From Berkelbacteria bacterium GW2011_GWE1_39_12 (GTDB lineage: Bacteria > Patescibacteriota > UBA1384 > UBA12157), in the NCBI GenBank assembly GCA_001029735.1, contig CP011213.1, positions 524,613 to 588,612 on the forward strand: a stretch of DNA of 64,000 nt, written 5' to 3'. The first letter of the stretch is position 1. The number at the start of each line of letters is the position of its first letter. Of this stretch, positions 9,164 to 21,424 are shown one piece after another. Below the pieces are notes generated by a model. It was not told the origin of the DNA. It was given only the letters and a program-made list of their open reading frames with translations, and searched no databases. The translations under genes were made by a program, and so were the position numbers.

Positions 9164-10624
9164 TTACCAGTGGATGAATACAGGTGTACCGATTTCATCC
9201 CAGTTATATATCCATTCAGCATCACCATTGGAAGCATTGATACAACCATGGCTCATTGGATGACCAAAGTTATTGTGCCAATAAGTTCCATGAATTGAAT
9301 AGTCTCCGCTCCACCAGCTGATCCATTCGACATTTGGCACGCTATAACCAGGCCCATCCATAGTTTGGGAACGTGTCTTACCATAAACGGAGTAAGTACC
9401 CGTTGGGGTTGGACCAGTTTTTCCTGACGAAATTAAGAAATGGTTAACCATTGTATATCCGTCGAAAGCGTACAAGGTTTGCTCTGATAAATTAACGTCA
9501 ATATATCTACCGGCAAAACGTCCTGGCTGAGCATGAGGGTTTCTAATGATTTCAATTTTAGTAATTGGATACGTACCAATACTGATGGAATTATTATTAT
9601 TTGATTTAACTTGGTTTAACACATTATTAAGTAATTTTTCTGTATCGACACCAATACCGTCTTGTCCTTCAACCAATACTTCGCCAGTTCCTTCCATAAT
9701 TTCACGATCGATTTTTTTAACTTTAATTTTTGAAGCAACCTTATCGGTATAAGAGTTTACTTTTTGTTTTGAAAGATCGGCAACTAACTTATCGTTAACT
9801 TCCTTAAACTCAATCCAAGAGCCGATTTCACTTCTAGAAATAATATAATTATCATCTTGATAAATAAGATTGATTGGCGCTGTAGCCATTAAACTCTCGG
9901 CTTGTTTTTGTGCATCAAGAGTATCATCAGCAAATATTTTCGGTTGAAGAATAGAAGTTTTTAAAGTGATTTTCTCGTCAATTTTATTTTTAATTGCGTG
10001 TATTAAATCATTTTTAAGTACATCCTTATCAAAACCAAACCCTGGCTTTTCAGCAATTATTGAGATATTACCATTATCAATTGAAAGGCTGGCATTTTGA
10101 GCCGGTTTTTCGATTTCCTGATTGATTTTAGATAAAAAGTCATCTAATTTTGATTCGTCAACCTTCGGGCTTAAAGCGATATCGTGACCGGTAAAAATTA
10201 TTTGAGAGTTGGAGATTACTTTTTGCTTAAATGAGCCATCTCGTCCAAAATTATAAGCATCTGCTACAATCTTATCTGCATCAAAAGAAACTCCTAGTTC
10301 TGGCAGGGTAGAGTTTAGGGTTTGAGTTTCATGATTGATAGAAGGACCTTTTTTATTAATACTATCTATATAGGATAAAATAATTCTTTTAGCTTCGTCT
10401 GGAGTTTTACCCCCGATATTTATTCCGGCAACGGTTACCTTGGGTAAAATTTTTCCGTCGGTATCATTTTTAATCTTCCAGCCGGAAGCAAATAAGAGTG
10501 CCAAAATTAAAAGAACAGCTGATACTTTAGCCATCACTGCTTTGTAAGTAGAGTGTTTAATTTTTTCTGATTTATTAGTCTTGATTTTTGGTAACGCGAT
10601 TGATGGATGAATAAACTGTTGCAT
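9164..10624 (-). CDS. L,D-transpeptidase (YkuD-fold) family protein with an N-terminal membrane anchor
   Basis: C-terminal catalytic motif '...HGTYWHNNFGHPMSHGCINASNGDAEWIYNW' (conserved H/SHGC of L,D-transpeptidases). Hydrophobic anchor 'VSAVLLILALLFASGW'. Start moved to the ATG at 10624 (MQQFIHP...) because a GGAGGGG SD lies 5 nt upstream; the ORF-track start at 10696 has no RBS. Confidence 0.8.
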   Translation of the reverse strand: MQQFIHPSIALPKIKTNKSEKIKHSTYKAVMAKVSAVLLILALLFASGWKIKNDTDGKILPKVTVAGINIGGKTPDEAKRIILSYIDSINKKGPSINHETQTLNSTLPELGVSFDADKIVADAYNFGRDGSFKQKVISNSQIIFTGHDIALSPKVDESKLDDFLSKINQEIEKPAQNASLSIDNGNISIIAEKPGFGFDKDVLKNDLIHAIKNKIDEKITLKTSILQPKIFADDTLDAQKQAESLMATAPINLIYQDDNYIISRSEIGSWIEFKEVNDKLVADLSKQKVNSYTDKVASKIKVKKIDREIMEGTGEVLVEGQDGIGVDTEKLLNNVLNQVKSNNNNSISIGTYPITKIEIIRNPHAQPGRFAGRYIDVNLSEQTLYAFDGYTMVNHFLISSGKTGPTPTGTYSVYGKTRSQTMDGPGYSVPNVEWISWWSGDYSIHGTYWHNNFGHPMSHGCINASNGDAEWIYNWDEIGTPVFIHW

Positions 10625-10730
10625 TTGCCCCTCCGGCCTATTTTTTGTTTTTTTAATTTTTGAAATTTCATTTTTCAAATTATATAAGTATATCAAAAAA
10701 AATACCGTTTGTCAAGCATTGGTATTTTAG

Positions 10731-10797
10731 TGGTGCGCGCGCTTGGATTCGCCTGCGTGCCTAAAGGTAGGCATCTAGCAAGAACCGATTGTGTATA
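10731..10797 (-). repeat. Partial duplicate of the 3' half of the adjacent tRNA (anticodon loop to CCA), interrupted by a 28-nt hairpin-forming insert in the T-arm. Possible att-site scar.
   Basis: Minus-strand sequence TATACACAATCGGTTCTT + [GCTAGATGCCTACCTTTAGGCACGCAGG] + CGAATCCAAGCGCGCGCACCA reproduces the tRNA 3' half exactly, except that GGTT is replaced by the insert (TGCCTA/TAGGCA stem). It lies 12 nt from the intact tRNA. Confidence 0.6.
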
Positions 10798-10809
10798 TAA
10801 ATAGAGTAT

Positions 10810-10884
10810 TGGTGCGCGCGCTTGGATTCGAACCAAGAACCGATTGTGTATAAGACAATTGCTCTGCCGTTGAGCTACGCGCGC
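10810..10884 (-). tRNA. tRNA-Ile, anticodon UAU (reads AUA)
   Basis: Manual fold of the minus strand: acceptor GCGCGCG/CGCGCGC, U8, D-arm GCTC-AACGGCA-GAGC, anticodon stem ATTGT/ACAAT with loop C-U-UAU-A-C, T-arm CTTGG-TTCGAAT-CCAAG, discriminator A, encoded CCA. Confidence 0.75.
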
Positions 10885-11077
10885 CTTCACTATTATTTTA
10901 ACCTGTAATCATCTAAATATCAAGCTTTTCGCTTGACATCCTTTGTACTCTAGAATAATATCTGATATCTTTATTAAGTAAGCCGAATTTCGGGCCGGGA
11001 TCTTAGGTCATTTTGAGCTAGGGTCAATAAGAGTAACAGTTGTATACCGAAAGTAATTTAAAAACTGAAAGGAAAAG

Positions 11078-12412
11078 ATGAGTCAAAAATTAAAACGCTG
11101 TTTTTTAATTTTTAGTGTTACAATTTTTGCGTTAATGACTTTCTTTGCTTTTGGTTTAGATAAATCTAAAGCCGCTGAAGAAAGTGAACCACAAGTAGAT
11201 GCTTTGCCGATAGTGCAATTTTCCGATGTATCAACAACCGGTTTGGAAAACAGTCCAAGCCATCCGATCAGAGTATACCTTTCGGAAGTTGCAACTCATG
11301 ATGTAATAGTCGATTATTCGGTCATCGGTGGAACGGCAGTAGCAGGGGAAGATTATTTGTTAGAATATTATTCCCTGAAAATTAGAGAAGGTGGATCCTA
11401 TGCGGACATTAATTTAATGTTGTTAGATAATCACTTGGTTGACAAAACAAGAAATCTAACATTAGGTTTATCAGGACCGATTAACGCACAATTAGGTGAA
11501 AACGCAGAGTTTAACTTTACGATTTTAGATGATGATTCGGCCCCGGTTAGTACTTTGACGACCGTGCCTCAAGTAGCAGATGGTCAAAATGGTTGGTTTA
11601 TAACTAAACCAGAGTTTGAGATAAGTACTGATAAGATAGCAGATGTTTATTACAGAATCAACAGACAAGATTGGGTTGTTTATGCTGGACCGGTTACGGT
11701 TTTGGAAGGTATAAATTTGATTGATTATTATGCATTTGATAGTTATGGAAACATTGAGTCAATTAAAACTACTACTTTGAAGGTTGATACTGTAAAGCCT
11801 AGCATACCAAGTTTAATAGTAAAATTGGAAAGCCAAGGCGAAACAATGCAAGCTAACCTTGCTTGGCAAACAGATGAAGACTCGCAGTTTTATCAAATTT
11901 GGCGAAATGGGGTATTGATCGAAACTTTATCTGGCGAAAAAAAAAGCTTTGCTGACGAGGGACTAGTTGTTAATCAGTCTTATGAATACTATATTATTGC
12001 CATTGATCGGGCGGGTAATCAGTCGGTTTCTGGAAAGTCGACTGTTCAGTTTGCAGTGAAAGAAGTGATTAAGGAAGTAAAAGGGACGCAAACCATTGCA
12101 AAACCTTTACCTAAAGTCAGAAAATCGATCGCTAAGGGTGTCAGCACTGAAGTTACAGAAAAAGTAAGTGGTGATGAAACCAAAATTGTCGAAGAGCAAC
12201 CAGAGAAGGAATCAGTAAAAGAAAGTGATTCAAATAAAGCTAATAATCAAGGAACTAAAGAAATAAATTGGAATAGAATCTTATTACTTATCTCTGTTTT
12301 GATTATTCTTTCAGGGCTTGGTATTGGAATTTATTACGGCTATGGATGGTTTTTGTCTTCAAAAAAAACGAAAACAGTAGTAGATGAAAAAAAGTCCAAG
12401 AGTAGATGGTAA
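11078..12412 (+). CDS. Membrane-anchored surface protein with a Calx-beta-like domain, an FN3-like domain, a Lys/Glu-rich linker and a C-terminal TM helix
   Basis: N-terminal signal/TM 'CFLIFSVTIFALMTFFAFG'. Calx-beta-like 'VDYSVIGGTAVAGEDYLLEYYSLKIREGGSYADINL...FNFTILDDD'. FN3-like 'LAWQTDEDSQFYQIWRNGVLIETLSGEKKSFADEGLVVNQSYEYYIIAIDRAGNQS'. C-terminal 'LLLISVLIILSGLGIGIYYGYGWF'. SD AAAGGAAAAG precedes the ATG. Confidence 0.65.
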   Translation: MSQKLKRCFLIFSVTIFALMTFFAFGLDKSKAAEESEPQVDALPIVQFSDVSTTGLENSPSHPIRVYLSEVATHDVIVDYSVIGGTAVAGEDYLLEYYSLKIREGGSYADINLMLLDNHLVDKTRNLTLGLSGPINAQLGENAEFNFTILDDDSAPVSTLTTVPQVADGQNGWFITKPEFEISTDKIADVYYRINRQDWVVYAGPVTVLEGINLIDYYAFDSYGNIESIKTTTLKVDTVKPSIPSLIVKLESQGETMQANLAWQTDEDSQFYQIWRNGVLIETLSGEKKSFADEGLVVNQSYEYYIIAIDRAGNQSVSGKSTVQFAVKEVIKEVKGTQTIAKPLPKVRKSIAKGVSTEVTEKVSGDETKIVEEQPEKESVKESDSNKANNQGTKEINWNRILLLISVLIILSGLGIGIYYGYGWFLSSKKTKTVVDEKKSKSRW

Positions 12413-12465
12413 ACAAAAATTGCTCCTAAGTTTAAATGGGGCAATTTTTGTAATATACTAAAACC

Positions 12466-12879
12466 ATGAGAATAAAAACAGCAGACAATATAAAGAGTTA
12501 TTTCAATCAAAACGGAGGGAGATATCTTTTGATTGTTTTAGTTTTTTACACTTTTATTATGCTTGGAAAATCTGTTTGGGCTAATTTTCAGCTACAAAAA
12601 CAAACCGACCTGATTAAGGCTAAAATTGAAGAAGTAAAAACTCAAAATAATAATTTAGGGAATTTAATACTTTATTATAAATCAGATAGCTTCAGGGAAG
12701 TGGAAGCAAGACGGAAATTAGGTCTAAAAAGACCGGATGAAAAAGTTATGAATGTTCCAGTTCAAAAATTTGATAATTTTAATGCAGAAATTGAAGCACA
12801 AAAAAATAATTTAGCGCCAAAGATAATTGATACTAAATCATCCAATCCTTCCATGTGGTGGCAATACTTAACTAAATAA
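12466..12879 (+). CDS. ftsB: FtsB/DivIC-like septum-formation initiator family protein
   Basis: Single TM followed by a coiled coil and the conserved 'SFREVEARRKLGLKRPDEKV' motif (compare FtsB 'EEARFELGMVKPGE'). Confidence 0.65.
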   Translation: MRIKTADNIKSYFNQNGGRYLLIVLVFYTFIMLGKSVWANFQLQKQTDLIKAKIEEVKTQNNNLGNLILYYKSDSFREVEARRKLGLKRPDEKVMNVPVQKFDNFNAEIEAQKNNLAPKIIDTKSSNPSMWWQYLTK

Positions 12880-12967
12880 ATCAGAACTCTCTGCTTGACT
12901 TACGGCCGTTTTTGTGGTAAACTATTTTAATATCAAAAAATTGATATTAAAAACAAAAGGAAGGGTA

Positions 12968-13966
12968 ATGGGAAAAAATTTTAAAAAGTTATTGATTGGG
13001 GCAATTCTCATTATTCTTTTTGTCGGTCCGATAAAATTCGCAAACGCTGCTGTTTCTTCAAATTCATTAACCAATTTAGTAAATGCTTCAAGATCTCAAG
13101 AAGGTTTATCTCCTTTAAGTAATAACGCCAAACTTGCCGATGCTGCTTTAAAAAAAGCGCAAGACATGTTTGACAATCAATATTTTTCCCATAACTCTCC
13201 AGAAGGTAAAACTCCTTGGGATTTTTTTAAAGTTTCCGATTATGATTATGTTTATGCTGGTGAAAACTTAGCCATAGGATATACCGATTCTAATGAGCTT
13301 CACGACGCGTGGATGAATTCGCCAACTCATCGAGAAAATATAATGAATCCAAATTATCGTGAAATTGGGATCGCGTTTTTGTCAGGTGAGTATAATGGGG
13401 AAAATACCACAATTGTTGTTCAAACGTTTGGTTCTATGTCCGCAATCCAGCCGGCCAGTCAACTAAAAACTGTTTCTGCTTCAGAAATAAATAAAGAATC
13501 TGGGGCAGTAAACTCTTTTGAAATCTTGAACGATGGTACTTCTTTTACCCCAACGAAAATTTTTCAAAATGACAGTGTTGATTTTAAAGTTGCAATTAAG
13601 GGTGACGCTAAGGATGTTTATATAATGGTAGGTGATCAAAAAATTGATTTAAAAAACATTTTATTACTAGCCGATGGTTCAGTTAAAAATTTATCTAAGA
13701 CTGTAAAAATAGAAAACGCTGGTAAACTAAATGTTGCGTTAACTGTAACTGATCATAATAATGAACAAGAGGTAAAGGATCTTGGCATTTTAGAGGTAAA
13801 TTCAGTTGTTGTCGCAAATGCTGGCACAAACCGTTCGATTACTGCTGCCACTTTTAATAATATAATCGATCATCTTAGCCTCTACCTGTCTGGAACCTTT
13901 TTCCTGATATTGATGATCGCTTTGTATTTTCTCTTTGTTCGTCAACGATATGGAAAATTTATATAA
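12968..13966 (+). CDS. CAP/SCP (YkwD-like) domain protein with a signal peptide, a beta-rich C-terminal extension and a C-terminal TM anchor
   Basis: CAP-domain signature 'FSHNSPEGKTPWDFF...YAGENLAIGYTDSNELHDAWMNSPTHRENIMNPNYREIGIA'. Start set to the ATG at 12968, which has an AAGGAAGGG SD; the upstream ORF-track start has no RBS. Confidence 0.75.
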   Translation: MGKNFKKLLIGAILIILFVGPIKFANAAVSSNSLTNLVNASRSQEGLSPLSNNAKLADAALKKAQDMFDNQYFSHNSPEGKTPWDFFKVSDYDYVYAGENLAIGYTDSNELHDAWMNSPTHRENIMNPNYREIGIAFLSGEYNGENTTIVVQTFGSMSAIQPASQLKTVSASEINKESGAVNSFEILNDGTSFTPTKIFQNDSVDFKVAIKGDAKDVYIMVGDQKIDLKNILLLADGSVKNLSKTVKIENAGKLNVALTVTDHNNEQEVKDLGILEVNSVVVANAGTNRSITAATFNNIIDHLSLYLSGTFFLILMIALYFLFVRQRYGKFI

Positions 13967-14128: not shown

Positions 14129-14203
14129 GGCTGAGTAGCTCAGTGGTAGAGCAGCAGACTCATAAGCTGTTGGTCGGTGGTTCAAATCCACCCTCAGCCA
14201 CCA
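14129..14203 (+). tRNA. tRNA-Met (CAU), elongator type. tRNA-Ile2 (lysidine) cannot be excluded from sequence alone.
   Basis: GGCTGAG-TA-GCTC-AGTGGTA-GAGC...CTCATAA...GGTGG-TTCAAAT-CCACC-CTCAGCC-A-CCA. Anticodon CAU with a fully paired acceptor stem. Confidence 0.7.
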
Positions 14204-14272
14204 TCTGTTAAAACTGAGATTTACTCAGAAAAAAATTGTAAAATTAACTTTTATATAATAAGGAATTTCTTA

Positions 14273-16057
14273 ATGCGCGCCAGTTGTACACGAAACATTT
14301 TTTACATTATAGTAGCGGTCATCATTGCGCTAATAGTTTGGTCTCTTTTTGCCCAAACAGGAACTAAACCTGATCAGGTTAATATTTCTCAAGTAACCGA
14401 TGCAGTTAAAAACAACGAAGTCTCAAAAATCGTTGTTTCTAACGATAAATTGACTGTTGATTTAAAGAGCGGTAAAACTTGGCAAACCTATAAGGAATCA
14501 GGCGTAGGTATAAATCAGTACGGTATTACGCCGGATAAAGTTGCTATTGATATCCAAAATTCCAGCTCTAATAGTATCTGGCCAACAATTATTGGTTATT
14601 TGCTTCCATTTTTATTAATCGGTGGTTTTATTTTCTTTATGTTGCGCCAGGCCCAGGGTGGGAATATGAAAGCAATGAATTTCGGCCAATCCCGAGCCAG
14701 GCTTTTCCAGCCAGGGGCTAAAAAAACCACTTTTGCGGATGTTGCAGGATTGGAAGAACCTAAACAAGAATTGTATGAAATAGTAGAATTTTTAAAAAGT
14801 CCAGGTAAATTTCAAAATTTAGGCGCAGAAATTCCTAAGGGTGTTTTATTGGTAGGTCCTCCTGGAACCGGTAAAACTTTATTGGCAAGAGCAGTTGCTG
14901 GTGAAGCTGGTGTACCGTTCTTTTCGATTTCCGCATCAGAATTTGTGGAAATGTTTGTCGGTGTTGGTGCGGCAAGAGTAAGAGATTTATTTCAGAAAGC
15001 CAAACGGAACGCTCCGGCTATATTATTTATCGACGAATTAGATGCTATTGGTCGTCAGCGTGGAGGCGGTATGGGTAGTGGTTCTCATGATGAGAGGGAA
15101 CAGACCCTCAATCAAATTTTGGTGGAGATGGATGGATTTGAGACCGATACTCGTGTAATTGTTATGGCCGCAACAAACCGTCCTGATGTTTTAGATCCTG
15201 CATTGCTACGCCCAGGTAGATTTGACCGAAGGGTTGTAATAGATATTCCTGACTTAAAAGAAAGAGAAGAGATACTAAAAATTCATGGTCGCAATAAGCC
15301 TTTAGCCAAGGATGTTGATTTGGAAAGGATTGCACGCTCTACTGCTGGTCTATCTGGGGCAGACCTAAGAAACGTGATGAACGAAGCAGCTATATTGACG
15401 GCTAGAGCTAATGCAAAAAGTATTAATCAAAATCAGCTAAACATGGCGATTGAAAAAGTTATTTTAGGACCTGAAAGAAAATCTCATTTAATGTCGGTTA
15501 AAGAAAAAGAAATTTCCGCTTATCATGAAGCCGGACACGCAATTATCGGTAAATTATTACCAAATACTGATGAAATTCATAAAATTTCAATTGTTTCACG
15601 CGGCTCTGCCTTAGGATACACTTGGTCATTACCAACCGAGGATCGTAAGTTGTATTCCAAAGCTAAATTTGAAGATGAAATCGCGCAACTGTTGGGTGGT
15701 TTTGTTTCCGAAAAGATTATTTTCAATGAGGTGACAACAGGTGCGCAGAACGATCTTAAACGAGCAACAAAAATTGCCAAAGACATGGTTACTGTTTACG
15801 GCATGTCAGATCTTTTGGGTCCGGTTGTTCTCAAAGACAAAGAAGACGTGGGTTATTTAAGAGAACTCGGTGAACAAAAGAATTATTCAGAATCTAAAGC
15901 AACTCAAATTGACGCAGAAGTTTCAAGAATTATCTCCGATGCGCAAAAAAAAGCGACACGTGTCTTAAGCGGAAAGAAATCTCTTCTCAAAAAAATTGCT
16001 TTGAAACTGATCAAAGAAGAAACTATCGAAGGTGTTGATTTCGATAAACTTTTTTAA
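14273..16057 (+). CDS. ftsH: ATP-dependent zinc metalloprotease FtsH
   Basis: Two N-terminal TM segments, Walker A 'GPPGTGKT', SRH region, and zinc motif 'HEAGHA'. Start moved to the ATG at 14273 so that it no longer overlaps the tRNA. Confidence 0.95.
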
Positions 16058-16144: not shown

Positions 16145-17269
16145 GTGAAACTACTTACTAGGATCAAGCGATTACCTCAAAGGCAAAAAATAATACTTGG
16201 ACTATCTTCTTTTGTTGTATTGGCGACAATTGGAGTTTTGATTTGGGCAGCAGCCACTGGTCAAATCAAGCCTAAGGCTGCCAGTGTTCAGATCTCAAAT
16301 ACAGCTACCGTGACTTATCAAGACGCAGCAGGAAACTCTTACAGCGCACAGAGCAATACTGTGCTTGTTGATATTGTTCCGACTGTTAACGCGACTCTTG
16401 CTTTGTCGCCAGCTACTTCGAGCACCGTTGTTGGTAGTACTTTTAAAGTCGATATTATTTTAAATACAAACGGTCAAGTAAGCACAGAAACCGATGCTGT
16501 ATTGTCATACAATAACCAAGAGTTACAGGTGGTTGATTCAAATGGCAGTGCTGCAACACAAATAACACCGAATACGCCAAATGTATTTGCCACGGTATCG
16601 GCAAACACTGTCAATTCATCAATGGGAACAATTACTTATAAAGCAACCGGATCGTATGCTGGTACCGGAACTTTAGCCTCTATTAATTTTAAAGCTCTTA
16701 AAGCAGCTGCGCCGAGCAAGGTACAATTTGCCTTTACTAATGGTCAAACCAATGATTCAAATGTATTAATAACGAATGGATCAGATATTTTATCATTAGC
16801 AAGTGGGGGAGACTATACTATAACTGGCGCGACAAGCAATACCATTAATATTTCTTTAGCTCTGCAATCTGGAACTAACTTTTCAACTACTAATACAGTT
16901 TTCACAATTTATCGAGTAGGTACGACTACAGAAGTGTTTAAATCAGATGTGACTACCGATAGTTCTGGCAAGGCTTCTTTCACAATTACTTCACCTGCAG
17001 CTGGAAACTATGATTACATAATAAAAGTGAATGGTTATTTGGTTAAAGCCATAAAGAATACTGTTTATACTAATCCTTTGACTTTGAATTTTGGTAGTTT
17101 AAAAGCTGGTGATCTTGATAGCGATAATCATGTGACGCTTTCGGATTTTATATCTTTTAGAACCAAATTTGGTGGCAGTGACCCAGTTGCTGATTTCGAT
17201 CACGACGGAAAAGTAACATTATCGGATTTTATCACTTTTAGAACTAATTTTGGATTAACAGGAGATTAA
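16145..17269 (+). CDS. Surface protein with an N-terminal TM anchor, a cohesin-like domain, a beta-sandwich (CarboxypepD_reg/Cna-B-like) domain and a C-terminal two-repeat dockerin
   Basis: Cohesin-like 'GSTFKVDIILNTNGQVSTETDAVLSYNNQELQVVD...GTITYKATGSYAGTGTLASINFKALK'. Dockerin repeats 'GDLDSDNHVTLSDFISFRTKFG' and 'DFDHDGKVTLSDFITFRTNFG' (Ca-binding D-x-D-x-D...D pattern). GTG start with an AGAGGGG SD. Confidence 0.75.
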   Translation: MKLLTRIKRLPQRQKIILGLSSFVVLATIGVLIWAAATGQIKPKAASVQISNTATVTYQDAAGNSYSAQSNTVLVDIVPTVNATLALSPATSSTVVGSTFKVDIILNTNGQVSTETDAVLSYNNQELQVVDSNGSAATQITPNTPNVFATVSANTVNSSMGTITYKATGSYAGTGTLASINFKALKAAAPSKVQFAFTNGQTNDSNVLITNGSDILSLASGGDYTITGATSNTINISLALQSGTNFSTTNTVFTIYRVGTTTEVFKSDVTTDSSGKASFTITSPAAGNYDYIIKVNGYLVKAIKNTVYTNPLTLNFGSLKAGDLDSDNHVTLSDFISFRTKFGGSDPVADFDHDGKVTLSDFITFRTNFGLTGD

Positions 17270-17273
17270 TCAA

Positions 17274-18290
17274 ATGAAAAACAAGAAAAACATTACAATC
17301 ATAGCTGGGGTAGTTGCAATCTTAATTATTGTTTTTGTCTTAGCTTATGTTTATAGAACAAAAATATTTTCCAATGCTGCTACTATTACTTCATCGCTTA
17401 CTCTGTCTCCTGCTACAAGCTCAATTAATGCAGGTTCAGCCTTCAATGTGAACATTGCTTTAAATACTGCAGGACAAGCTGTTTCGGGTGTTCAGATTGA
17501 GAAGATACATTTTGATCCGACCGTCTTGCAAGTAGTTGACGCAGACACTGCTACAACTGGTATCCAAATCGCTAAAGGAAACATCAATAACTTTGAGATG
17601 TCGCTTACAAATAGTGTTGACAATGCTAGCGGAACAATCACCTATGCTGTGGCAACAATTAGTAATGACTATACCGGCAATGACATACTGGCGATAATAA
17701 ACTTTAAAGCTCTAAATAAAGTTGCCGCTAATTCTGCGGTTACTTTTGATTACACACAGGGTTCAAAGGTCCTGACTAGTGTTAGTGATTCATCTGGAAA
17801 CAACGTATTATTGACCGTTGGCAATGGTTCTTATTCAATAACCAACAATACGGCGGCTAATATTACTCTTGGCCTACAAGCAGGCAATAATTTTAATACT
17901 TCAGGAACGGTTTTTTCCATTTACCAAGTAAATTCATCGACATTGGTTTATCAAAATAATGCAGTAGCAACAGATAATACTGGTAAAGCAACGATATCTT
18001 TTGCTTCTCCGGTGGCTGGAAATTATGATTATAAAATAAAAGTTAATGGTTACTTGGTCAAAGCTGTTAAAAACACGGCCATTTCAAATACAATGTCACT
18101 TGCTTTTGGCACGTTGAAAGCGGGTGATCTCGATGGTGATAACACTGTTTCGTTAGCTGATTTTATTTCATTTAGATCAAAATTTGGTCAAGCTATAGCA
18201 AAAATTGTTCCTGATTTTGATCAAGACGGCAAGGTAACTTTATCTGACTTTGTTATTTTCAGAAGTAATTATTTGCAAAGTGGTGATTAA
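17274..18290 (+). CDS. Paralog with the same architecture: TM anchor, cohesin-like domain, beta-sandwich domain and dockerin
   Basis: 'SAFNVNIALNTAGQAVSGVQIEKIHFDPTVLQVVD' (cohesin-like). Dockerin repeats 'GDLDGDNTVSLADFISFRSKFG' and 'DFDQDGKVTLSDFVIFRSNY'. GGAGA SD precedes the ATG. Confidence 0.75.
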   Translation: MKNKKNITIIAGVVAILIIVFVLAYVYRTKIFSNAATITSSLTLSPATSSINAGSAFNVNIALNTAGQAVSGVQIEKIHFDPTVLQVVDADTATTGIQIAKGNINNFEMSLTNSVDNASGTITYAVATISNDYTGNDILAIINFKALNKVAANSAVTFDYTQGSKVLTSVSDSSGNNVLLTVGNGSYSITNNTAANITLGLQAGNNFNTSGTVFSIYQVNSSTLVYQNNAVATDNTGKATISFASPVAGNYDYKIKVNGYLVKAVKNTAISNTMSLAFGTLKAGDLDGDNTVSLADFISFRSKFGQAIAKIVPDFDQDGKVTLSDFVIFRSNYLQSGD

Positions 18291-18309
18291 TAAATTGGAC
18301 AGGAGATTG

Positions 18310-19755
18310 ATGAGTAAAATTGATTTTAAAGGGATGAAAAAAGACTTAGTTGTTGCTTTATCGGTAACGTTGATTGTTTTTATGATAGGTGGATATTTCG
18401 TGCTCAGGAAAACTGGAAAGCTTTCAACAAAAGCCGACGTAAACGGTCCTTCTTTTACTTTAGAACCAAATAGTGGCTCAATTTATCTTGACGCCAATCT
18501 CGAGGTCAGTGTAAGGATGGATACCTTTGGCCAAGCAGCTTCGGGAGCTCAGATAGAAAAAATCCATTTTGACCCGACGGTTTTACAGGTTATTGATGCA
18601 GACTCTCAAACTGATGGTGTCCAAATAGCTAAGGGTAATATTTCAAATTTTGAAATTCCATTGGCCAATTTGGTCGACAACTCTGCGGGTACTGTATCAT
18701 ATAGTGTAAGTTCGTTTACTAATAATTTTACTGGTAGTGATATATTGGCTGTTATAAACTTCAAAACAATCGCGGAATCGTCTAGTACTGAAATAAAATT
18801 TGATTTCGACGGTACGGCTTCGACTACAATGATGACAGATGTCCAGGGAAGCAATATTTTGGCAGGCGTGGGTTCTGCCGCTTTCAGTATCACAACGCAA
18901 AATCCGGCTCCGACAGTTGATTTAAAAGCTAATAATTCAGATGGCCCTATTACTATTAACTCAGGTGAAGCGGCTACTCTCTCATGGATTTCCGCAAATG
19001 CTACAAGTTGTAGTGCTTCAGAGGGTTGGTCAGGTTCGAAAGAATTATCGGGCAGCGATTCTACTGGCGCTTTAACAGTATCTCAGAGTTACATTTTAAC
19101 TTGCACTGGCGATGGAGGTTCTGTAAGTGATGCAGTTACTGTAAACGTTAAGACGCCAGATAAAAAAATCCCTCAAATAGATCTAAAGGCAAACAATATG
19201 AGTGGTTCAGTTACCATTGATAGTGGCTTGACTGTGAAGCTTGGCTGGACTGTCACAAATGCGAGTTCATGCAATGCGGGGGGCGACTGGCAGGGCGCAA
19301 AGGGTCTGATTGGCGAAGAGACCACAGCCGTGATTACTACTGCTAAAACTTATACACTAATTTGCCAAGGGGATGTGGAATCAACTGGAAGTGTGACGGT
19401 TAATGTGAATAGCGTTAATTCTGGTGGTGACGACACGAGTGACGACGTGAGTGACGACACGAATCGGGACAGCACTGGCGGAACAAGTAAAAAGACTGCC
19501 AGTACTCCGGTCGCGGCTTTACCCTCAAAGCTTACTCCTGCTGCTCCAGTGCAGCTCTCTAAGCTTCCAAGCAACATCCAACCAATAGCTACACCACAGG
19601 TTTCAGCTAACAATGTCGAGTTATACAAGAATGACTCAATGAAGCCTTGGGCATTGTGGTTTTTATATGCTATTATTCCTGCTTTTTTGGCTGGCGGTGC
19701 AATCTATTTCTATTTAAAAAGAAATAAAACAATGAAAAATAACGAGGTGATCTAG
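18310..19755 (+). CDS. Third paralog: TM anchor, cohesin-like domain, two Ig-like Cys-containing repeats, an acidic/Ser-Thr-rich linker and a C-terminal TM anchor. It has no dockerin.
   Basis: 'GQAASGAQIEKIHFDPTVLQVID' cohesin-like. Duplicated ~80-aa modules 'DLKANNSDGPITINSGEAATLSWISANATSC...LTCTG' and 'DLKANNMSGSVTIDSGLTVKLGWTVTNASSC...LICQG'. C-terminal 'WALWFLYAIIPAFLAGGAIYFYL'. Start set at 18310, which has an AGGAGA SD. Confidence 0.7.
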   Translation: MSKIDFKGMKKDLVVALSVTLIVFMIGGYFVLRKTGKLSTKADVNGPSFTLEPNSGSIYLDANLEVSVRMDTFGQAASGAQIEKIHFDPTVLQVIDADSQTDGVQIAKGNISNFEIPLANLVDNSAGTVSYSVSSFTNNFTGSDILAVINFKTIAESSSTEIKFDFDGTASTTMMTDVQGSNILAGVGSAAFSITTQNPAPTVDLKANNSDGPITINSGEAATLSWISANATSCSASEGWSGSKELSGSDSTGALTVSQSYILTCTGDGGSVSDAVTVNVKTPDKKIPQIDLKANNMSGSVTIDSGLTVKLGWTVTNASSCNAGGDWQGAKGLIGEETTAVITTAKTYTLICQGDVESTGSVTVNVNSVNSGGDDTSDDVSDDTNRDSTGGTSKKTASTPVAALPSKLTPAAPVQLSKLPSNIQPIATPQVSANNVELYKNDSMKPWALWFLYAIIPAFLAGGAIYFYLKRNKTMKNNEVI

Positions 19756-19825: not shown

Positions 19826-21424
19826 ATGGTAAAAAAAATATCTAAAGCTTTAAATCGGCAAAACTCTCTGGCATCTGCCTCAATAATTTTAATCATTACT
19901 CTTTTTATTTCAAATATACTTGGTGTTTTTAGAGATCATTTTTTAACTCAAAAAATCCCGACTGATATCCTAAGTACGTATTATGCTGCCTTTAGGATTC
20001 CGGATTTTATTTTTAACCTATTAATTTTAGGAGCGATTGCCTCTGCCTTTATTCCTGTTTTTACAACATTAATAACCCAAAAGAAAAATGAAGAAGCATG
20101 GCAGGTTGCAAATTCGATTATTAATATCGCCATGCTAGTATTAGTGATTTTTATCACAACACTCTTTATTACTATGCCTTTTCTTGTTCCATTGGTAGTA
20201 CCAGGTTTTGACGAGGAAAAACAAAGAATAGTCACGTCCTTAGCGCGGATTATGCTCGGTTCGCCGTTGTTCTTTGGCCTCTCTTATATAGTCGGTGGAA
20301 TTCTAAACTCGCATAAACGTTTTCTTGCTTATTCTTTGGCACCGTTAATTTACAATGTTTCGATTATAGTGGGGGCCATATTTTTTGCCGATAAGTACGG
20401 GATAGTTGCAATTGCTTATGCCGTAGTAGTCGGCGCTTTTTTACATTTAATGATTCAGCTTCCTTCCGCGATTAAGCTAGGCTTTCGTTATCAACCTAAG
20501 ATTTATTGGAAGCATTGGGGTGTTAAAAGAATTGGCATAATGATGTTTCCTCGCTCTATCGCCTTGGGCGCCAATCAAATAATGTTATTAATTTTTACCG
20601 CCATTGCTTCCGGCCTAGGGGGTTTTTCAGTTGCAATATACACTTTGGCTGACAATATTCAAACTTTACCGGTAGTGGTATTTGGAACATCATTTGCCAC
20701 AGCAGTTTTTCCATCTCTTTCCGAAGCAATTTCTCAAAACAAACAAACAGTGTTTGTAGATCATCTCAAAAAAACAATGAGAATTATTATTTTTCTATTA
20801 ATCCCTGTGACGGCGGGGCTATTTTTGTTACGCACTGAAATAGTAAGGCTGATCCTGGGATCAGGCTTTTTTGGCTGGCAACAGACTATTACAACAGCAA
20901 ATACTTTAGGTATTTTAGCTCTTTCACTCGTTTTCTCGGGCTTAACACCTTTATTTTTCAGAGCATTCTATGCATTGCATAACACAAAGCTGCCGATGGT
21001 TATAATGTTGATAAACGTAATTTTTAGTATCGTTTTAGGTAAATTATTTTCGATCAATATGGGAGTACTTGGGTTAGCTTTGGGTTATGCAATCGGCGAT
21101 GTGATTGGAGCTGTTATTGCTTATGCGTTATTGCGTAGAAAAGTTACCATTTCTAATGAAAAGGAAATTTTTTTCTTTGTATTAAAAGTAGTTTTGGCTA
21201 CTTTGATAATGAGTATAGCGATTCAAGAGGCTAAAGTATTATCCGGTATTTTTGTCGACATGCAAAGATTTTGGGGAGTTTTAGCAAAAACGAGCATTGG
21301 CTTGGGAGTAGGCATATCTGTATATTCATTAACTTGCTGGATTTTTGGCTGCGAAGAAATACAGTCGGTTAAGGCAATTTTAAATCGCGTAATAAAACGG
21401 GGACCAGATGGAACAAAAATCTAA
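19826..21424 (+). CDS. murJ: Lipid II flippase MurJ (MviN family)
   Basis: 532-aa polytopic membrane protein with the MurJ-like N-terminus '...ASASIILIITLFISNILGVFRDHFLTQKIPTDILSTYYAAFRIPDFIFNLLILGAIASAFIPVF'. Confidence 0.85.
   Translation: MVKKISKALNRQNSLASASIILIITLFISNILGVFRDHFLTQKIPTDILSTYYAAFRIPDFIFNLLILGAIASAFIPVFTTLITQKKNEEAWQVANSIINIAMLVLVIFITTLFITMPFLVPLVVPGFDEEKQRIVTSLARIMLGSPLFFGLSYIVGGILNSHKRFLAYSLAPLIYNVSIIVGAIFFADKYGIVAIAYAVVVGAFLHLMIQLPSAIKLGFRYQPKIYWKHWGVKRIGIMMFPRSIALGANQIMLLIFTAIASGLGGFSVAIYTLADNIQTLPVVVFGTSFATAVFPSLSEAISQNKQTVFVDHLKKTMRIIIFLLIPVTAGLFLLRTEIVRLILGSGFFGWQQTITTANTLGILALSLVFSGLTPLFFRAFYALHNTKLPMVIMLINVIFSIVLGKLFSINMGVLGLALGYAIGDVIGAVIAYALLRRKVTISNEKEIFFFVLKVVLATLIMSIAIQEAKVLSGIFVDMQRFWGVLAKTSIGLGVGISVYSLTCWIFGCEEIQSVKAILNRVIKRGPDGTKI

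What the first reader, a model, noticed from the sequence alone, without database searches (positions are those of the whole stretch)
16145..19755. Three tandem paralogs combining cohesin-like and dockerin-like modules: a candidate self-assembling surface scaffold
Genes 1 and 2 each have an N-terminal membrane anchor, a cohesin-like beta-sandwich ('...IEKIHFDPTVLQVVD...') and a C-terminal duplicated Ca-loop dockerin ('GDLDSDNHVTLSDFISFRTKFG' / 'DFDHDGKVTLSDFITFRTNFG'). Gene 3 keeps the cohesin-like domain but replaces the dockerin with two Ig-like Cys modules, an acidic S/T-rich linker and a C-terminal TM anchor. Each dockerin-bearing subunit also carries a cohesin, so in principle they could chain onto each other and onto the doubly anchored gene 3 product. 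That would be a polymerisable, non-cellulosomal cohesin-dockerin assembly beside murJ. No enzyme-borne dockerin partner is visible in this window.
Basis: partly seen in the sequence, partly recalled or inferred. Interest (0 to 1): 0.75.

Follow-up and report, generated by a model that had tools for sequence, protein, structure and literature searches.

The report
Cohesin–dockerin surface cassette in a CPR bacterium
Three adjacent genes of a tiny uncultured (Berkelbacteria) bacterium encode the same plug-and-socket protein modules that cellulose-degrading bacteria use to build cellulosomes, here with no enzymes attached, and the same gene cassette recurs widely in uncultured bacteria, probably as a kit for building a cell-surface attachment structure.

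Summary
Three co-directional, tightly spaced paralogous genes (16145-17269, 17274-18290, 18310-19755) lie between ftsH and murJ in a Candidatus Berkelbacteria genome.

None of the three proteins passes Pfam's Cohesin or Dockerin cut-offs alone. Family profiles and AlphaFold2 models nevertheless show real cohesins (3l8q 7.7e-14; TM 0.76-0.77) and real dockerins (1e-9, against 8e-4 or worse for EF-hand proteins).

Genes 1 and 2 are therefore Coh-X-Doc, and the best structural match is the CipA Coh9-X-DocII fragment. Gene 3 is a cohesin, two 2-Cys Ig modules, a disordered stalk of about 75 residues and a conserved C-terminal helix.

The strongest new evidence is comparative. In 31 of 46 related loci (Patescibacteria, Chloroflexota), dockerin-bearing genes sit beside separate cohesin-only genes, and 19 of these have a C-terminal anchor. 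Cargo in relatives is adhesin-, lectin- or protease-like, never a carbohydrate-active enzyme (CAZyme).

The best reading is a minimal non-cellulosomal anchoring and adaptor scaffoldin system for surface display or adhesion. Cohesin-dockerin binding, open-ended polymerisation and double anchoring of gene 3 are inferred, not shown. It is a new variant of a known kind, of moderate interest.

The parts
16145..17269 (+). Gene 1 (374 aa). Layout: N-terminal hydrophobic segment (aa ~16-37); a g1-specific 35-aa Ig-fragment-like insert (aa 46-80); a divergent cohesin (aa ~81-227); an X-module-like Ig domain (aa ~228-316); a dockerin with two F-hand repeats (aa 317-374).
   Evidence: Searches give the domain boundaries from family HMMs. 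NCBIfam dockerin_GC scores 28.7 bits against a cut-off of 29. The Shine-Dalgarno sequence GAGGGG lies upstream of the GTG start.
17274..18290 (+). Gene 2 (338 aa). Layout: N-terminal hydrophobic helix (aa 2-31); cohesin (aa 38-190); X-module-like Ig domain (aa 191-278); dockerin (aa 279-338).
   Evidence: AlphaFold2 model, pLDDT 75. Foldseek's best hits are CipA Coh9-X-DocII, 4fl4_I at 1.5e-15 and 3kcp_A at 1.1e-14, over ~330 columns. Pfam Dockerin_1 scores 18.2 bits against a cut-off of 22.9. AGGAG lies 9 nt upstream, inside the end of gene 1.
18310..19755 (+). Gene 3 (481 aa), the putative membrane-anchored base. Layout: N-terminal hydrophobic helix (aa 11-34); cohesin (aa 48-195); two 2-Cys Ig-like modules (aa 202-281 and 289-367); an acidic then S/T/P-rich disordered stalk (aa 370-444); a conserved C-terminal helix plus KRNK tail (aa 446-481).
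   Evidence: AlphaFold2 model, pLDDT 76.6. Foldseek finds cohesins at TM 0.77 and 0.65. The ortholog alignment is A3. A profile of A3 hits only cohesins in the PDB. AGGAG lies upstream of the ATG at 18310.
17093..17269 (+). Gene 1 dockerin: GDLDSDNHVTLSDFISFRTKFG - GSDPVA - DFDHDGKVTLSDFITFRTNFG. Both repeats have Asp at Ca positions 1, 3, 5 and 12 and Thr at position 9. Positions 10-11 are LS and position 17 is R in both repeats, so the two halves are internally symmetric.
   Evidence: The sequence is printed. The Doc-only profile A5 against the PDB gives 3ul4_B at 1e-9 and many other dockerins.
18108..18290 (+). Gene 2 dockerin: GDLDGDNTVSLADFISFRSKFG - QAIAKIVP - DFDQDGKVTLSDFVIFRSNYL.
   Evidence: It is 67% identical to the gene 1 dockerin, with no sign of recent gene conversion (third-codon-position identity 0.50).
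17844..18107 (+). Gene 2 X-module-like Ig domain, directly preceding the dockerin. The equivalent region in gene 1 is about 16826-17092.
   Evidence: The X-only profile A4 against the whole PDB has as its top hits the X-modules of ScaA XDoc (4wi0_B 5e-4, 4u3s_B 6.5e-4), followed further down by CipA XDoc (5g5d_B 0.062, 2b59_B 0.067). The whole-family profile aligns across X plus Doc of 2b59_B at 1.1e-9.

Best explanation
The three genes form one operon that encodes a minimal, enzyme-free cohesin-dockerin surface assembly of a Candidatus Berkelbacteria (CPR/Patescibacteria) cell.

**Gene 3 is the base.** It is held in the membrane by a conserved C-terminal helix. A disordered stalk of about 75 residues and two Ig-like spacers raise a single cohesin above the envelope. 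This makes it the functional analogue of an anchoring scaffoldin.

**Genes 1 and 2 are adaptor subunits.** Their layout, cohesin - X-module - dockerin, is that of the C-terminal end of a cellulosomal scaffoldin.

**Proposed assembly (inferred).**
- The Ca2+-loaded dockerins of genes 1 and 2 plug into the cohesin of gene 3, or into the closely related cohesin of gene 2.
- This gives a short stacked fibre: base, then adaptor, then adaptor.
- The outermost cohesin, the divergent one of gene 1, stays free for a further partner or has no partner.

**Likely role.** In relatives the same cassette carries adhesin-, lectin- or protease-bearing dockerin proteins. The general job is therefore modular display on the cell surface, most plausibly attachment to a host cell or substrate.

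**Shown:** gene structure; paralogy; cohesin, X-module and dockerin identity; gene 3 architecture; conservation of the cassette.

**Inferred:** that these dockerins bind these cohesins; which binds which; Ca2+ dependence; the surface location; the adhesive role.
For: **Domain identity.**
- Family profile A1 hits type II cohesins (3l8q 7.7e-14) and X-Doc dyads (2b59_B 1.1e-9, 4u3s_B 7.5e-8).
- 7 of 14 family members hit Pfam Cohesin (best 1.9e-11) and 10 of 14 hit Dockerin_1 (best 7.2e-8).
- The AlphaFold2 model of g2 matches CipA Coh9-X-DocII best (1.5e-15) and single cohesins at TM 0.72-0.76.
- The g3 model matches cohesins at TM 0.77.
- The X-only and Doc-only profiles separately recover X-modules (5e-4) and dockerins (1e-9).

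**Operon.** Gaps of 4 and 19 bp, a Shine-Dalgarno sequence before each start, and no terminator above background.

**Cassette conservation.**
- The same ftsH...murJ trio occurs in L001 and L035.
- L003 has Doc-only, Coh-X-Doc and Coh-only-with-C-terminal-anchor genes. L036 has two Coh-X-Doc genes followed by Coh-only genes.
- L002 has Coh-fn3-X-Doc followed by Cohesin+PG_binding_1.
- Census: 31 of 46 loci have Doc-bearing and separate Coh-only ORFs side by side; 19 have a Coh-only ORF with a hydrophobic segment C-terminal to the cohesin; 19 have a Coh+Doc adaptor.

**Cargo in relatives.** FG-GAP, discoidin plus SdrD_B, TIG/fn3, beta-helix and clostripain, each with a dockerin above Pfam's cut-off.

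**Age and selection.**
- The three cohesin lineages are orthologous between genomes (73%, 69% and 60% identity), so the triplication is old.
- The conserved stretch shared by the g2 and g3 cohesins is kept at the protein level only (third-position identity 38%).
- The two dockerins of a genome share the residue at canonical recognition position 10: L here, G in L001, A in L035.
Against: - None of the three window proteins passes Pfam's or NCBIfam's curated cut-offs alone. Membership rests on family profiles and predicted folds.
- The dockerin part of the model has low confidence (pLDDT 55-67).
- No cohesin-dockerin interface was predicted or measured.
- A Coh x Doc mutual-information probe on 57 sequences gave no signal at recognition positions.
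- The within-genome dockerin similarity is small (67% against 62%) and does not generalise to the Anaerolineae cassettes.
- In cellulosomes, a cohesin and a dockerin on one polypeptide normally do not share specificity. That argues against self-chaining.
- No cargo-bearing dockerin lies in the 64 kb, and the rest of the genome could not be searched.
- If the N-terminal hydrophobic segments of about 20 residues are uncleaved anchors, genes 1 and 2 would be tethered beside the membrane. A stacked fibre would then be geometrically awkward.
Confidence: 0.6

Rival explanations
1. Open-ended self-polymer. The Coh-X-Doc subunits bind head to tail, with the dockerin of one in the cohesin of the next. 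This builds an indefinitely long non-covalent filament or network, nucleated on gene 3.
For: - Each of g1 and g2 carries one cohesin and one dockerin.
- The g2 cohesin shares a strongly conserved stretch with the g3 cohesin, so whatever binds g3 may also bind g2.
- The two dockerins are alike, and each is internally symmetric.
- No cargo lies in the window.
- Single Coh-(X)-Doc proteins are the commonest Doc-bearing architecture in the family (coh-doc 43, coh-xmod-doc 32).
Against: - The g1 ortholog in L035 and the first genes of L003 and L004 have no cohesin. A capped, finite stack is therefore the recurrent design.
- Known scaffoldins avoid self-compatible Coh/Doc pairs (established cellulosome biology, my own knowledge).
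- The covariation probe showed no intra-chain Coh-Doc coupling, though it had low power.
Confidence: 0.2
2. Display platform whose real clients are encoded elsewhere. The dockerins of g1 and g2 dock only on g3. The cohesins of g1 and g2 hold dockerin-bearing adhesins or enzymes encoded elsewhere in the 915 kb genome.
For: - Relatives' cassettes include large cargo proteins with dockerins (FG-GAP, discoidin, clostripain, beta-helix).
- The g1 cohesin is very divergent (26-41% identity to the others), as expected for a different specificity.
- Multi-cohesin scaffoldin-like relatives exist (nine cohesins plus a dockerin in P0025).
Against: - The full-length g2 search of 5.8 billion proteins returned, from this genome, only g2 itself. 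The only other 374-aa hit, P0004 (49% identical to g2, like g1), is listed from a different 68 kb JGI contig. No close dockerin sibling is therefore evident.
- Weak dockerins would have been missed, and the dedicated search failed technically.
Confidence: 0.3
3. The modules do not pair with each other. The cohesin-like and Ig-like domains are generic spacers or ligand-binding domains of envelope proteins, and the dockerin-like segment is a Ca2+-stabilised structural or glycan-binding tail.
For: - The window proteins are below the curated cut-offs.
- Most non-cellulosomal cohesins and dockerins have no demonstrated partner (Peer et al. 2009, as cited).
- The essential dockerin protein of Southlakia stands alone, with no cohesin neighbour.
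Against: - Separate Doc-bearing and Coh-only genes are adjacent in 31 of 46 loci across phyla. This is hard to explain without a functional link.
- The X-Doc dyad and the cohesin both match partners of solved complexes.
Confidence: 0.12
4. Gene 3 is a glucan endo-1,3-beta-glucanase (GH81), as NCBI's record for the identical protein says.
For: Only the name attached to P0161 by its source.
Against: - g3 has no Pfam or NCBIfam hit of any kind.
- The ortholog profile hits only cohesins in the PDB at significant E-values.
- 4 of 14 orthologs hit Pfam Cohesin and none hits a glycoside hydrolase.
- The AlphaFold2 model is cohesin plus two Ig modules plus a disordered stalk, which leaves no room for a catalytic domain.
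Confidence: 0.01

Closest known systems
Clostridium (Acetivibrio) thermocellum scaffoldin CipA, C-terminal Coh9-X-DocII fragment, with its anchoring scaffoldins SdbA, OlpB and Orf2p (PDB 3kcp, 4fl4, 2b59)
   Same: - Genes 1 and 2 have the same module order, cohesin - Ig-like X-module - dockerin. This fragment is their best structural match (4fl4_I 1.5e-15) and a sequence-profile match across X plus Doc (2b59_B 1.1e-9).
- The logic of adaptor plus anchored cohesin-only base, encoded in a gene cluster, is the same.
   Different: - There are no type I/type II division of labour, no CBM and no glycoside hydrolases.
- Each protein has one cohesin.
- The base is anchored by a C-terminal transmembrane helix rather than SLH repeats.
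- The dockerin has a very short inter-repeat linker (6-8 residues) and is closer in sequence to type I dockerins.
- The cohesin model shows no type II helix.
- The host is a CPR bacterium, not a cellulolytic clostridium.
Acetivibrio cellulolyticus ScaA XDoc - ScaB cohesin (PDB 4u3s, 4wi0, 3l8q, 1qzn)
   Same: - It gives the best sequence-profile hits for the cohesin (3l8q 7.7e-14) and for the X-module alone (4wi0_B 5e-4).
- It is an adaptor-scaffoldin concept.
   Different: The same differences as for CipA apply. Similarity is at remote-homology level (14-20% identity).
Non-cellulosomal cohesin- and dockerin-like modules (Peer et al. 2009 survey; Archaeoglobus fulgidus; ANME archaea, PMC9012536; Omnitrophota giant proteins, PMC10066038)
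   Same: - Cohesin and dockerin modules occur in organisms that do not degrade cellulose.
- The parent proteins are mostly non-catalytic, and adhesion or assembly roles have been proposed.
   Different: - Those reports are domain inventories.
- What is seen here is a conserved operon-like cassette (cap/cargo, Coh-X-Doc adaptor, TM-anchored Coh base) shared by Patescibacteria and Chloroflexota.
- It includes an X-module dyad and, in some relatives, true multi-cohesin proteins.
- I found no description of this cassette in the library searched.
Dockerin-domain envelope protein SEML1_0315 of the Saccharibacterium Southlakia epibionticum (Cell 2023, PMC10633639)
   Same: It is a CPR cell-envelope protein with a dockerin domain. 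It scored as essential or growth-defective in Tn-seq during epibiotic growth, and the authors propose host-glycan adhesion.
   Different: It is a stand-alone 927-aa gene with unrelated neighbours. It is not an ortholog, and no cohesin partner is described.
Clostridium perfringens toxin-complex cohesin / FIVAR-dockerin system (e.g. GH84C, PDB 2w1n)
   Same: It uses Coh-Doc pairs outside cellulose degradation to assemble surface or secreted proteins. 2w1n appears among the structural hits.
   Different: Its modules are carried by large glycoside hydrolases. It has no TM-anchored base and no Coh-X-Doc adaptor.

Membership tests
Cohesin domain (Pfam PF00963) | Nine-stranded beta-sandwich (jelly-roll) fold like solved cohesins | tested here: met
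   In the AlphaFold2 models the cohesin regions have pLDDT 85-93. Foldseek TM (target-normalised) is 0.76 for g2 and 0.77 for g3 against CaCohA2 (6kge_A), 0.74 against CipA Coh (1aoh), and 0.62-0.65 against type II cohesins.
Cohesin domain (Pfam PF00963) | Significant sequence-profile similarity to known cohesins | tested here: met
   Family profile A1 against the PDB gives 3l8q 7.7e-14 and 1qzn 5.7e-8. 7 of 14 family members hit PF00963, best 1.9e-11. The g3-family profile gives 2vn5_A 1.3e-4, and 4 of 14 orthologs hit PF00963, best 2.6e-13.
Cohesin domain (Pfam PF00963) | Each protein itself passes Pfam's gathering threshold | tested here: not met
   None of g1, g2 or g3 shows a Cohesin hit even at E <= 1. 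Membership is by family-level homology only.
Cohesin domain (Pfam PF00963) | Binds a dockerin | not testable with these tools
   No multimer prediction or experiment was available. The covariation probe was uninformative.
Dockerin (Pfam PF00404) | Two tandem ~22-residue F-hand repeats with Ca-ligand residues at positions 1, 3, 5, 9 and 12 | tested here: met
   Read directly from the sequence. g1 has D-L-D-S-D-N-H-V-T-L-S-D and D-F-D-H-D-G-K-V-T-L-S-D. g2 has D-L-D-G-D-N-T-V-S-L-A-D and D-F-D-Q-D-G-K-V-T-L-S-D. Position 9 is T or S rather than the usual N or D.
Dockerin (Pfam PF00404) | Profile similarity to dockerins clearly above that to generic EF-hands | tested here: met
   The Doc-only profile A5 gives dockerins 3ul4_B 1e-9, 4fl4_A 7.8e-9 and 1daq 1.8e-8, with both repeats aligned. 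The best EF-hand protein is 8e-4 on a single loop. 10 of 14 family members hit Dockerin_1. Relatives' dockerins score 29-40 bits against a cut-off of 22.9.
Dockerin (Pfam PF00404) | Each protein itself passes the curated threshold | tested here: not met
   g2 scores 18.2 bits on Dockerin_1 against 22.9. g1 has no Dockerin_1 hit, only EF-hand models. On NCBIfam dockerin_GC, g1 scores 28.7 against 29 and g2 scores 16.3.
Type II X-module-dockerin dyad (XDoc) | Ig-like X-module immediately N-terminal to the dockerin and homologous to scaffoldin X-modules | tested here: met
   For the X-only profile A4, the top PDB hits are ScaA XDoc (4wi0_B 5e-4, 4u3s_B 6.5e-4), with CipA XDoc further down (5g5d_B 0.062, 2b59_B 0.067). 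Foldseek aligns g2 over Coh-X-Doc of 3kcp_A. The E-values are modest.
Type II X-module-dockerin dyad (XDoc) | Type II-specific features of the partner cohesin (helix between strands 6 and 7, beta-flaps) and type II dockerin sequence | tested here: inconclusive
   The cohesin sequence profile prefers type II cohesins. However, the AlphaFold2 secondary structure shows no helix in the cohesin, and the dockerin profile scores type I dockerins higher than type II.
Cellulosome | [quoted passage not shown] | tested here: not met
   Each protein has one cohesin. No GH, CBM or other CAZyme domain is present in the three genes. No other cohesin or dockerin lies in the window, and the neighbours that were annotated carry no CAZyme domain. 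Cargo in relatives is non-CAZyme.
GH81 endo-1,3-beta-glucanase (NCBI's name for gene 3) | GH81 catalytic domain | tested here: not met
   No Pfam or NCBIfam hit. Profile, Pfam-on-orthologs and AlphaFold2 all show only cohesin plus Ig modules plus a stalk.

The most novel reading that the evidence does not exclude
The Coh-X-Doc proteins are protomers of a new kind of bacterial surface filament. It would be a non-covalent, Ca2+-dependent, head-to-tail cohesin-dockerin polymer, nucleated on the membrane-anchored gene 3 base and capped by cohesin-less X-Doc subunits. CPR and Chloroflexota cells would use it as an attachment fibre in place of, or alongside, pili. The unusually conserved C-terminal helix of the base (KPWALWFLYAIIP..L.GG.IY.YL.RKK) would then be an oligomerisation or sorting element specific to this system.
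Probability: 0.15. Interest if true: 0.8.

Novelty: new variant of a known kind. Interest (0 to 1): 0.55.

Why it matters
CPR/Patescibacteria are mostly obligate epibionts with tiny genomes. How they hold on to hosts is a central open question.

A conserved, enzyme-free cohesin-dockerin cassette would be a simple, experimentally tractable candidate for their surface architecture. It consists of an anchored base, Coh-X-Doc adaptors and, in relatives, adhesin, lectin or protease cargo.

It would also extend the scaffoldin logic well outside cellulolytic Firmicutes:
- anchoring and adaptor tiers
- the X-Doc dyad
- multi-cohesin proteins (a family member with nine cohesins plus a dockerin, whose source organism is unknown)

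For protein engineers, these short Coh-X-Doc units may offer new orthogonal plug-and-socket pairs.

The work also corrects a public mis-annotation of gene 3 as a glucanase.

Tried and rejected
1. **Single-sequence Pfam and NCBIfam scans** of the three proteins gave only sub-threshold dockerin or EF-hand hits and no cohesin. This was insufficient alone and was resolved with family profiles.
2. **Coh x Doc covariation** (mutual information with APC correction) on 57 non-redundant single-Coh/single-Doc proteins. The top pairs fell on linker and terminal columns and on one cohesin column (39), not on recognition positions. The result was uninformative at this depth.
3. **Concerted evolution of dockerins within a genome as a general signature.** It is present but weak in three Berkelbacteria-type loci (67-83% within a genome against ~62% between orthologs). 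It is absent in four orthologous Anaerolineae cassettes, so it was not used as strong evidence.
4. **Recent gene conversion** as the reason for g2/g3 cohesin and g1/g2 dockerin similarity. Rejected: third-codon-position identity is 0.38 and 0.50.
5. **Genome-wide dockerin hunt** by searching the 60-aa dockerin and flagging hits from the 915,059-bp contig. The word index produced only 2 candidates and no scores, so this was a dead end.
6. **AFDB fold search:** the library was unavailable.
7. **Metagenome scan for close cassettes** returned only 12 loci at 36% identity or less. That is too few and too distant for a targeted position-10 covariation test.
8. **Cluster look-ups** for multi-cohesin relatives gave no organism names.
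9. **SEML1_0315 as a direct functional precedent.** It is a stand-alone gene with unrelated neighbours.
10. **Promoter and terminator scan:** nothing above the shuffled background.
11. **The gene-1-specific insert and the 2-Cys Ig modules** have no convincing Pfam family.

Full report
**1. What is there**

The region holds three co-directional ORFs between ftsH (14177-16057) and murJ (19826-21424):
- gene 1: 16145-17269, 374 aa
- gene 2: 17274-18290, 338 aa
- gene 3: 481 aa from the ATG at 18310 to 19755

The mechanical ORF list starts gene 3 at a TTG at 18250, but the database protein P0161 and an AGGAG box point to 18310. The gaps are 4 and 19 bp. Each start has a Shine-Dalgarno sequence, and that of gene 2 lies inside the end of gene 1. 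A consensus scan finds no promoter or terminator signal above the shuffled background. I read this as one operon.

Paralogy is unambiguous:
- g1 vs g2: 49% identity over 305 residues, E = 1e-81.
- g2 vs g3: 43% identity over the N-terminal ~200 residues only, E = 1e-48.

Identical proteins in public data carry Candidatus Berkelbacteria names and sit on a 915,059-bp contig.

**2.

On their own the three proteins fail the curated tests:
- No Pfam Cohesin hit even at E <= 1.
- Dockerin_1 scores 18.2 bits against a cut-off of 22.9 for g2.
- NCBIfam dockerin_GC scores 28.7 against 29 for g1.
- g3 has no hit at all.

Family-level evidence is clear.
- *Whole-family profile.* A profile of 14 relatives hits type II cohesins of A. 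cellulolyticus ScaB (3l8q 7.7e-14; 1qzn 5.7e-8). Its C-terminal half hits the X-module-plus-dockerin dyads of CipA (2b59_B 1.1e-9) and ScaA (4u3s_B 7.5e-8).
- *Pfam on family members.* Seven of the 14 members hit Pfam Cohesin (best 1.9e-11) and ten hit Dockerin_1 (best 7.2e-8).
- *g2 model.* The AlphaFold2 model of g2 (pLDDT 75; cohesin 85-90, X 75-82, dockerin 55-67) finds as best PDB match the CipA Coh9-X-DocII fragment over ~330 columns (4fl4_I 1.5e-15, 3kcp_A 1.1e-14). Single cohesins follow at TM 0.72-0.76.

I then tested the modules separately.
- *X-only profile.* Its top hits in the whole PDB are the X-modules of ScaA XDoc (5e-4 and 6.5e-4), with CipA XDoc further down (0.06-0.07).
- *Doc-only profile.* It hits dockerins across both repeats (3ul4_B 1e-9 and about twenty more). 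EF-hand proteins appear only from 8e-4, on a single loop.

Both repeats of both dockerins keep Asp at Ca positions 1, 3, 5 and 12, with Thr or Ser at position 9.

Two refinements follow.
- I cannot assign the cohesins or dockerins to type I or II. The cohesin profile prefers type II. However, the models show no type II helix, and the dockerin sequences score higher on type I.

**3. Gene 3**

AlphaFold2 with 14 orthologs (pLDDT 76.6) gives:
- helix 11-34
- cohesin 48-195 (pLDDT ~90)
- two beta-sandwich modules, 202-281 and 289-367 (pLDDT 90-95), each with two invariant Cys and a Trp
- a disordered acidic then S/T/P-rich stretch, 370-444 (pLDDT ~30)
- helix 446-475 followed by KRNK

Foldseek confirms the cohesin (TM 0.77) and Ig-like arrays. 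The ortholog profile hits only cohesins in the PDB at significant E-values.

NCBI's name for this protein, a GH81 glucanase, has no support.

The C-terminal helix is strikingly conserved among orthologs (KPWALWFLYAIIP..L.GG.IY.YL.RKK).

A long stalk next to a C-terminal anchor makes most sense if the N-terminal hydrophobic segment is a cleaved signal, so that the cohesin is held away from the membrane. However, the segment is 20-22 residues long. The conserved GxIxPxA motif after it is not a canonical signal peptidase site. I therefore leave both options open: doubly anchored, or a type I membrane protein.

**4. Comparative evidence**

This is the main new result.
- *Same trio elsewhere.* It sits in the same ftsH...murJ context in two related genomes (L001, L035).
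- *Age.* Orthologs are closer than paralogs for each cohesin (73%, 69% and 60%, against 26-50%), so the three lineages are old.
- *Dispensable cohesin.* In L035 the g1 ortholog has lost its cohesin and is just anchor-X-Doc. L003 and L004 show the same three-tier layout: X-Doc, then Coh-X-Doc, then Coh-only with a C-terminal anchor.
- *Variant layouts.* L036 has two Coh-X-Doc genes followed by Coh-only genes. In L002 the base carries a peptidoglycan-binding domain instead of a helix.

Across 46 non-redundant loci from reference genomes and metagenomes:

| Feature | Loci |
|---|---|
| Doc-bearing ORFs next to separate Coh-only ORFs | 31 |
| Coh-only ORF with a hydrophobic segment C-terminal to the cohesin | 19 |
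| Coh+Doc adaptor present | 19 |

The loci come from these groups:
- Berkel-, Azam-, Saccharibacteria, Kerfeld-, Woese- and Doudnabacteria, and Microgenomates.
- Anaerolineae and Caldilineaceae.
- A few MAGs labelled Gammaproteobacteria.

Large dockerin proteins in those cassettes carry FG-GAP, discoidin plus SdrD_B, TIG/fn3, beta-helix or clostripain domains. Their dockerins pass Pfam's cut-off at 29-40 bits. None is a CAZyme.

An exhaustive profile search finds 632 representative clusters at E <= 1e-30 and 4,873 at E <= 1e-10. They include proteins with up to nine cohesins plus a dockerin.

**5. How it most likely works**

The cassette has the logic of anchoring and adaptor scaffoldins. Gene 3 is a membrane-held base that presents one cohesin on a stalk. 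Genes 1 and 2 are Coh-X-Doc adaptors whose dockerins plug into cohesins of the set. The recurrent cohesin-less first gene in relatives points to a finite stack (base, adaptor, cap) rather than an endless chain.

Two weak hints bear on which module binds which.
- The g2 and g3 cohesins share a 60-residue stretch with 39 identities kept at the protein level only (third-position identity 38%).
- The two dockerins of a genome share the residue at the canonical recognition position 10: L here, G in L001, A in L035. They are also slightly more alike within a genome than between orthologs, without recent gene conversion.

The second signal does not generalise. In four orthologous Anaerolineae cassettes each dockerin is closest to its positional ortholog (86-88%), which suggests several distinct specificities there.

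Binding itself, Ca2+ dependence, surface exposure and an adhesive role are inferences. I could not run multimer prediction. A mutual-information probe on 57 sequences was uninformative.

**6. Comparison with what is known**

- *Known ground.* Non-cellulosomal cohesins and dockerins are established (Peer et al. 2009, cited). They have been inventoried in archaea, ANME and Omnitrophota.
- *CPR precedent.* A dockerin-domain envelope protein scored as essential in the Saccharibacterium Southlakia. It is a stand-alone gene.
- *Not found.* In the searchable library I found no description of a conserved Coh/Doc cassette in CPR or Chloroflexota, nor of Coh-X-Doc adaptors with a TM-anchored base.
- *Not a cellulosome.* It has one cohesin per protein, no glycoside hydrolase and no CBM (definition quoted).

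I rate it a new variant of a known kind.

**7. Context and verdict**

The neighbourhood is envelope-related: a 3,015-aa fn3/Ig protein, an L,D-transpeptidase, Calx-beta and CAP-domain proteins, FtsH, MurJ and LepA. Adjacency to murJ is conserved in close relatives (L001, L002) but not in L003. I draw no functional link from it.

- **Observation:** confirmed.
- **Interpretation:** partly supported. The modules and the three-gene system are real. Self-polymerisation and double anchoring are unproven and are not the most likely reading.
- **Interest:** moderate (0.55). The case is well-defined, testable and apparently undescribed, and it bears on how CPR cells build their surface, but it is made from known parts using known logic.

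Noticed in passing
window 19645-19755 (gene 3 aa 446-481); alignment A3: The C-terminal helix of gene 3 is conserved almost residue for residue across Patescibacterial orthologs (KPWALWFLYAIIP..L.GG.IY.YL.RKK). This is far more than a plain membrane anchor needs. It matches no NCBIfam sorting-signal model. It could be an oligomerisation or sorting element.
   Followed up: partly
window g1 aa ~38-46, g2 aa ~29-36, g3 aa ~36-42; alignments A1 and A3: A conserved motif, GxIxPxA, follows the N-terminal hydrophobic segment in all three paralogs and in distant relatives. Pro at -3 is not a canonical signal peptidase I site. Whether it marks a cleavage site is unknown.
   Followed up: partly
window 18913-19410 (gene 3 aa 202-367): The two-Cys Ig-like module has no Pfam match, although AlphaFold2 models it at pLDDT 90-95. 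Most of the 292 proteins found with gene 3 share only this module. They include Patescibacterial proteins and carry PKD, DUF11 or N_methyl (pilin) domains. It appears to be an uncatalogued, promiscuous surface module.
   Followed up: partly
window 16280-16384 (gene 1 aa 46-80): A gene-1-specific insert, SVQISNTATVTYQDAAGNSYSAQSNTVLVDIVP, resembles only the last strands of an Ig-like domain (Big_13 positions 66-101 of 102, E = 0.01). It is conserved in the L001 ortholog and in the cohesin-less L035 ortholog P0009. Its role is unknown.
   Followed up: partly
window 18310-19755: NCBI's record for the identical protein calls it 'Glucan endo-1,3-beta-glucanase, putative, glu81A'. Nothing in sequence, profile or predicted structure supports this, so it is a likely mis-annotation.
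   Followed up: yes
window 8-9055: A 3,015-aa ORF with fn3 and Ig-like domains and a weak sialidase-type CBM hit, i.e. a giant surface protein. It has no cohesin or dockerin by the family HMMs.
   Followed up: partly
P0025 (2276 aa, JGI metagenome) and other hits: The family contains true multi-cohesin, scaffoldin-like proteins, with up to nine cohesins followed by a dockerin. The 2009 survey, as cited in the ANME paper, did not find such proteins in archaea outside cellulosomes. The source organism is unknown.
   Followed up: partly
L017:5938-6735 and L020:5959-6705: These base-type Coh-only proteins end in an LPxxG/A-like motif followed by a hydrophobic tail with no basic residues. This differs from the helix-plus-KRK tails elsewhere and may be a different, sortase-like anchoring mode.
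   Followed up: no
L035:1989-2702 (P0009); L003:485-1150: The first gene of the cassette can lack a cohesin entirely (anchor-X-Doc only). This suggests a capping subunit and means the gene-1-type cohesin is dispensable.
   Followed up: yes
P0195 (alignment A3): A gene-3-type protein (cohesin plus three 2-Cys Ig modules) ends in a dockerin instead of the stalk and C-terminal helix. The base and adaptor roles can therefore interconvert by swapping the C-terminal module.
   Followed up: no
window 9164-13966: Upstream neighbours are all envelope proteins: a YkuD L,D-transpeptidase with PG_binding_4 (- strand), a Calx-beta protein, and a CAP/SCP-domain protein that also ends in a hydrophobic helix with a basic tail.
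   Followed up: partly
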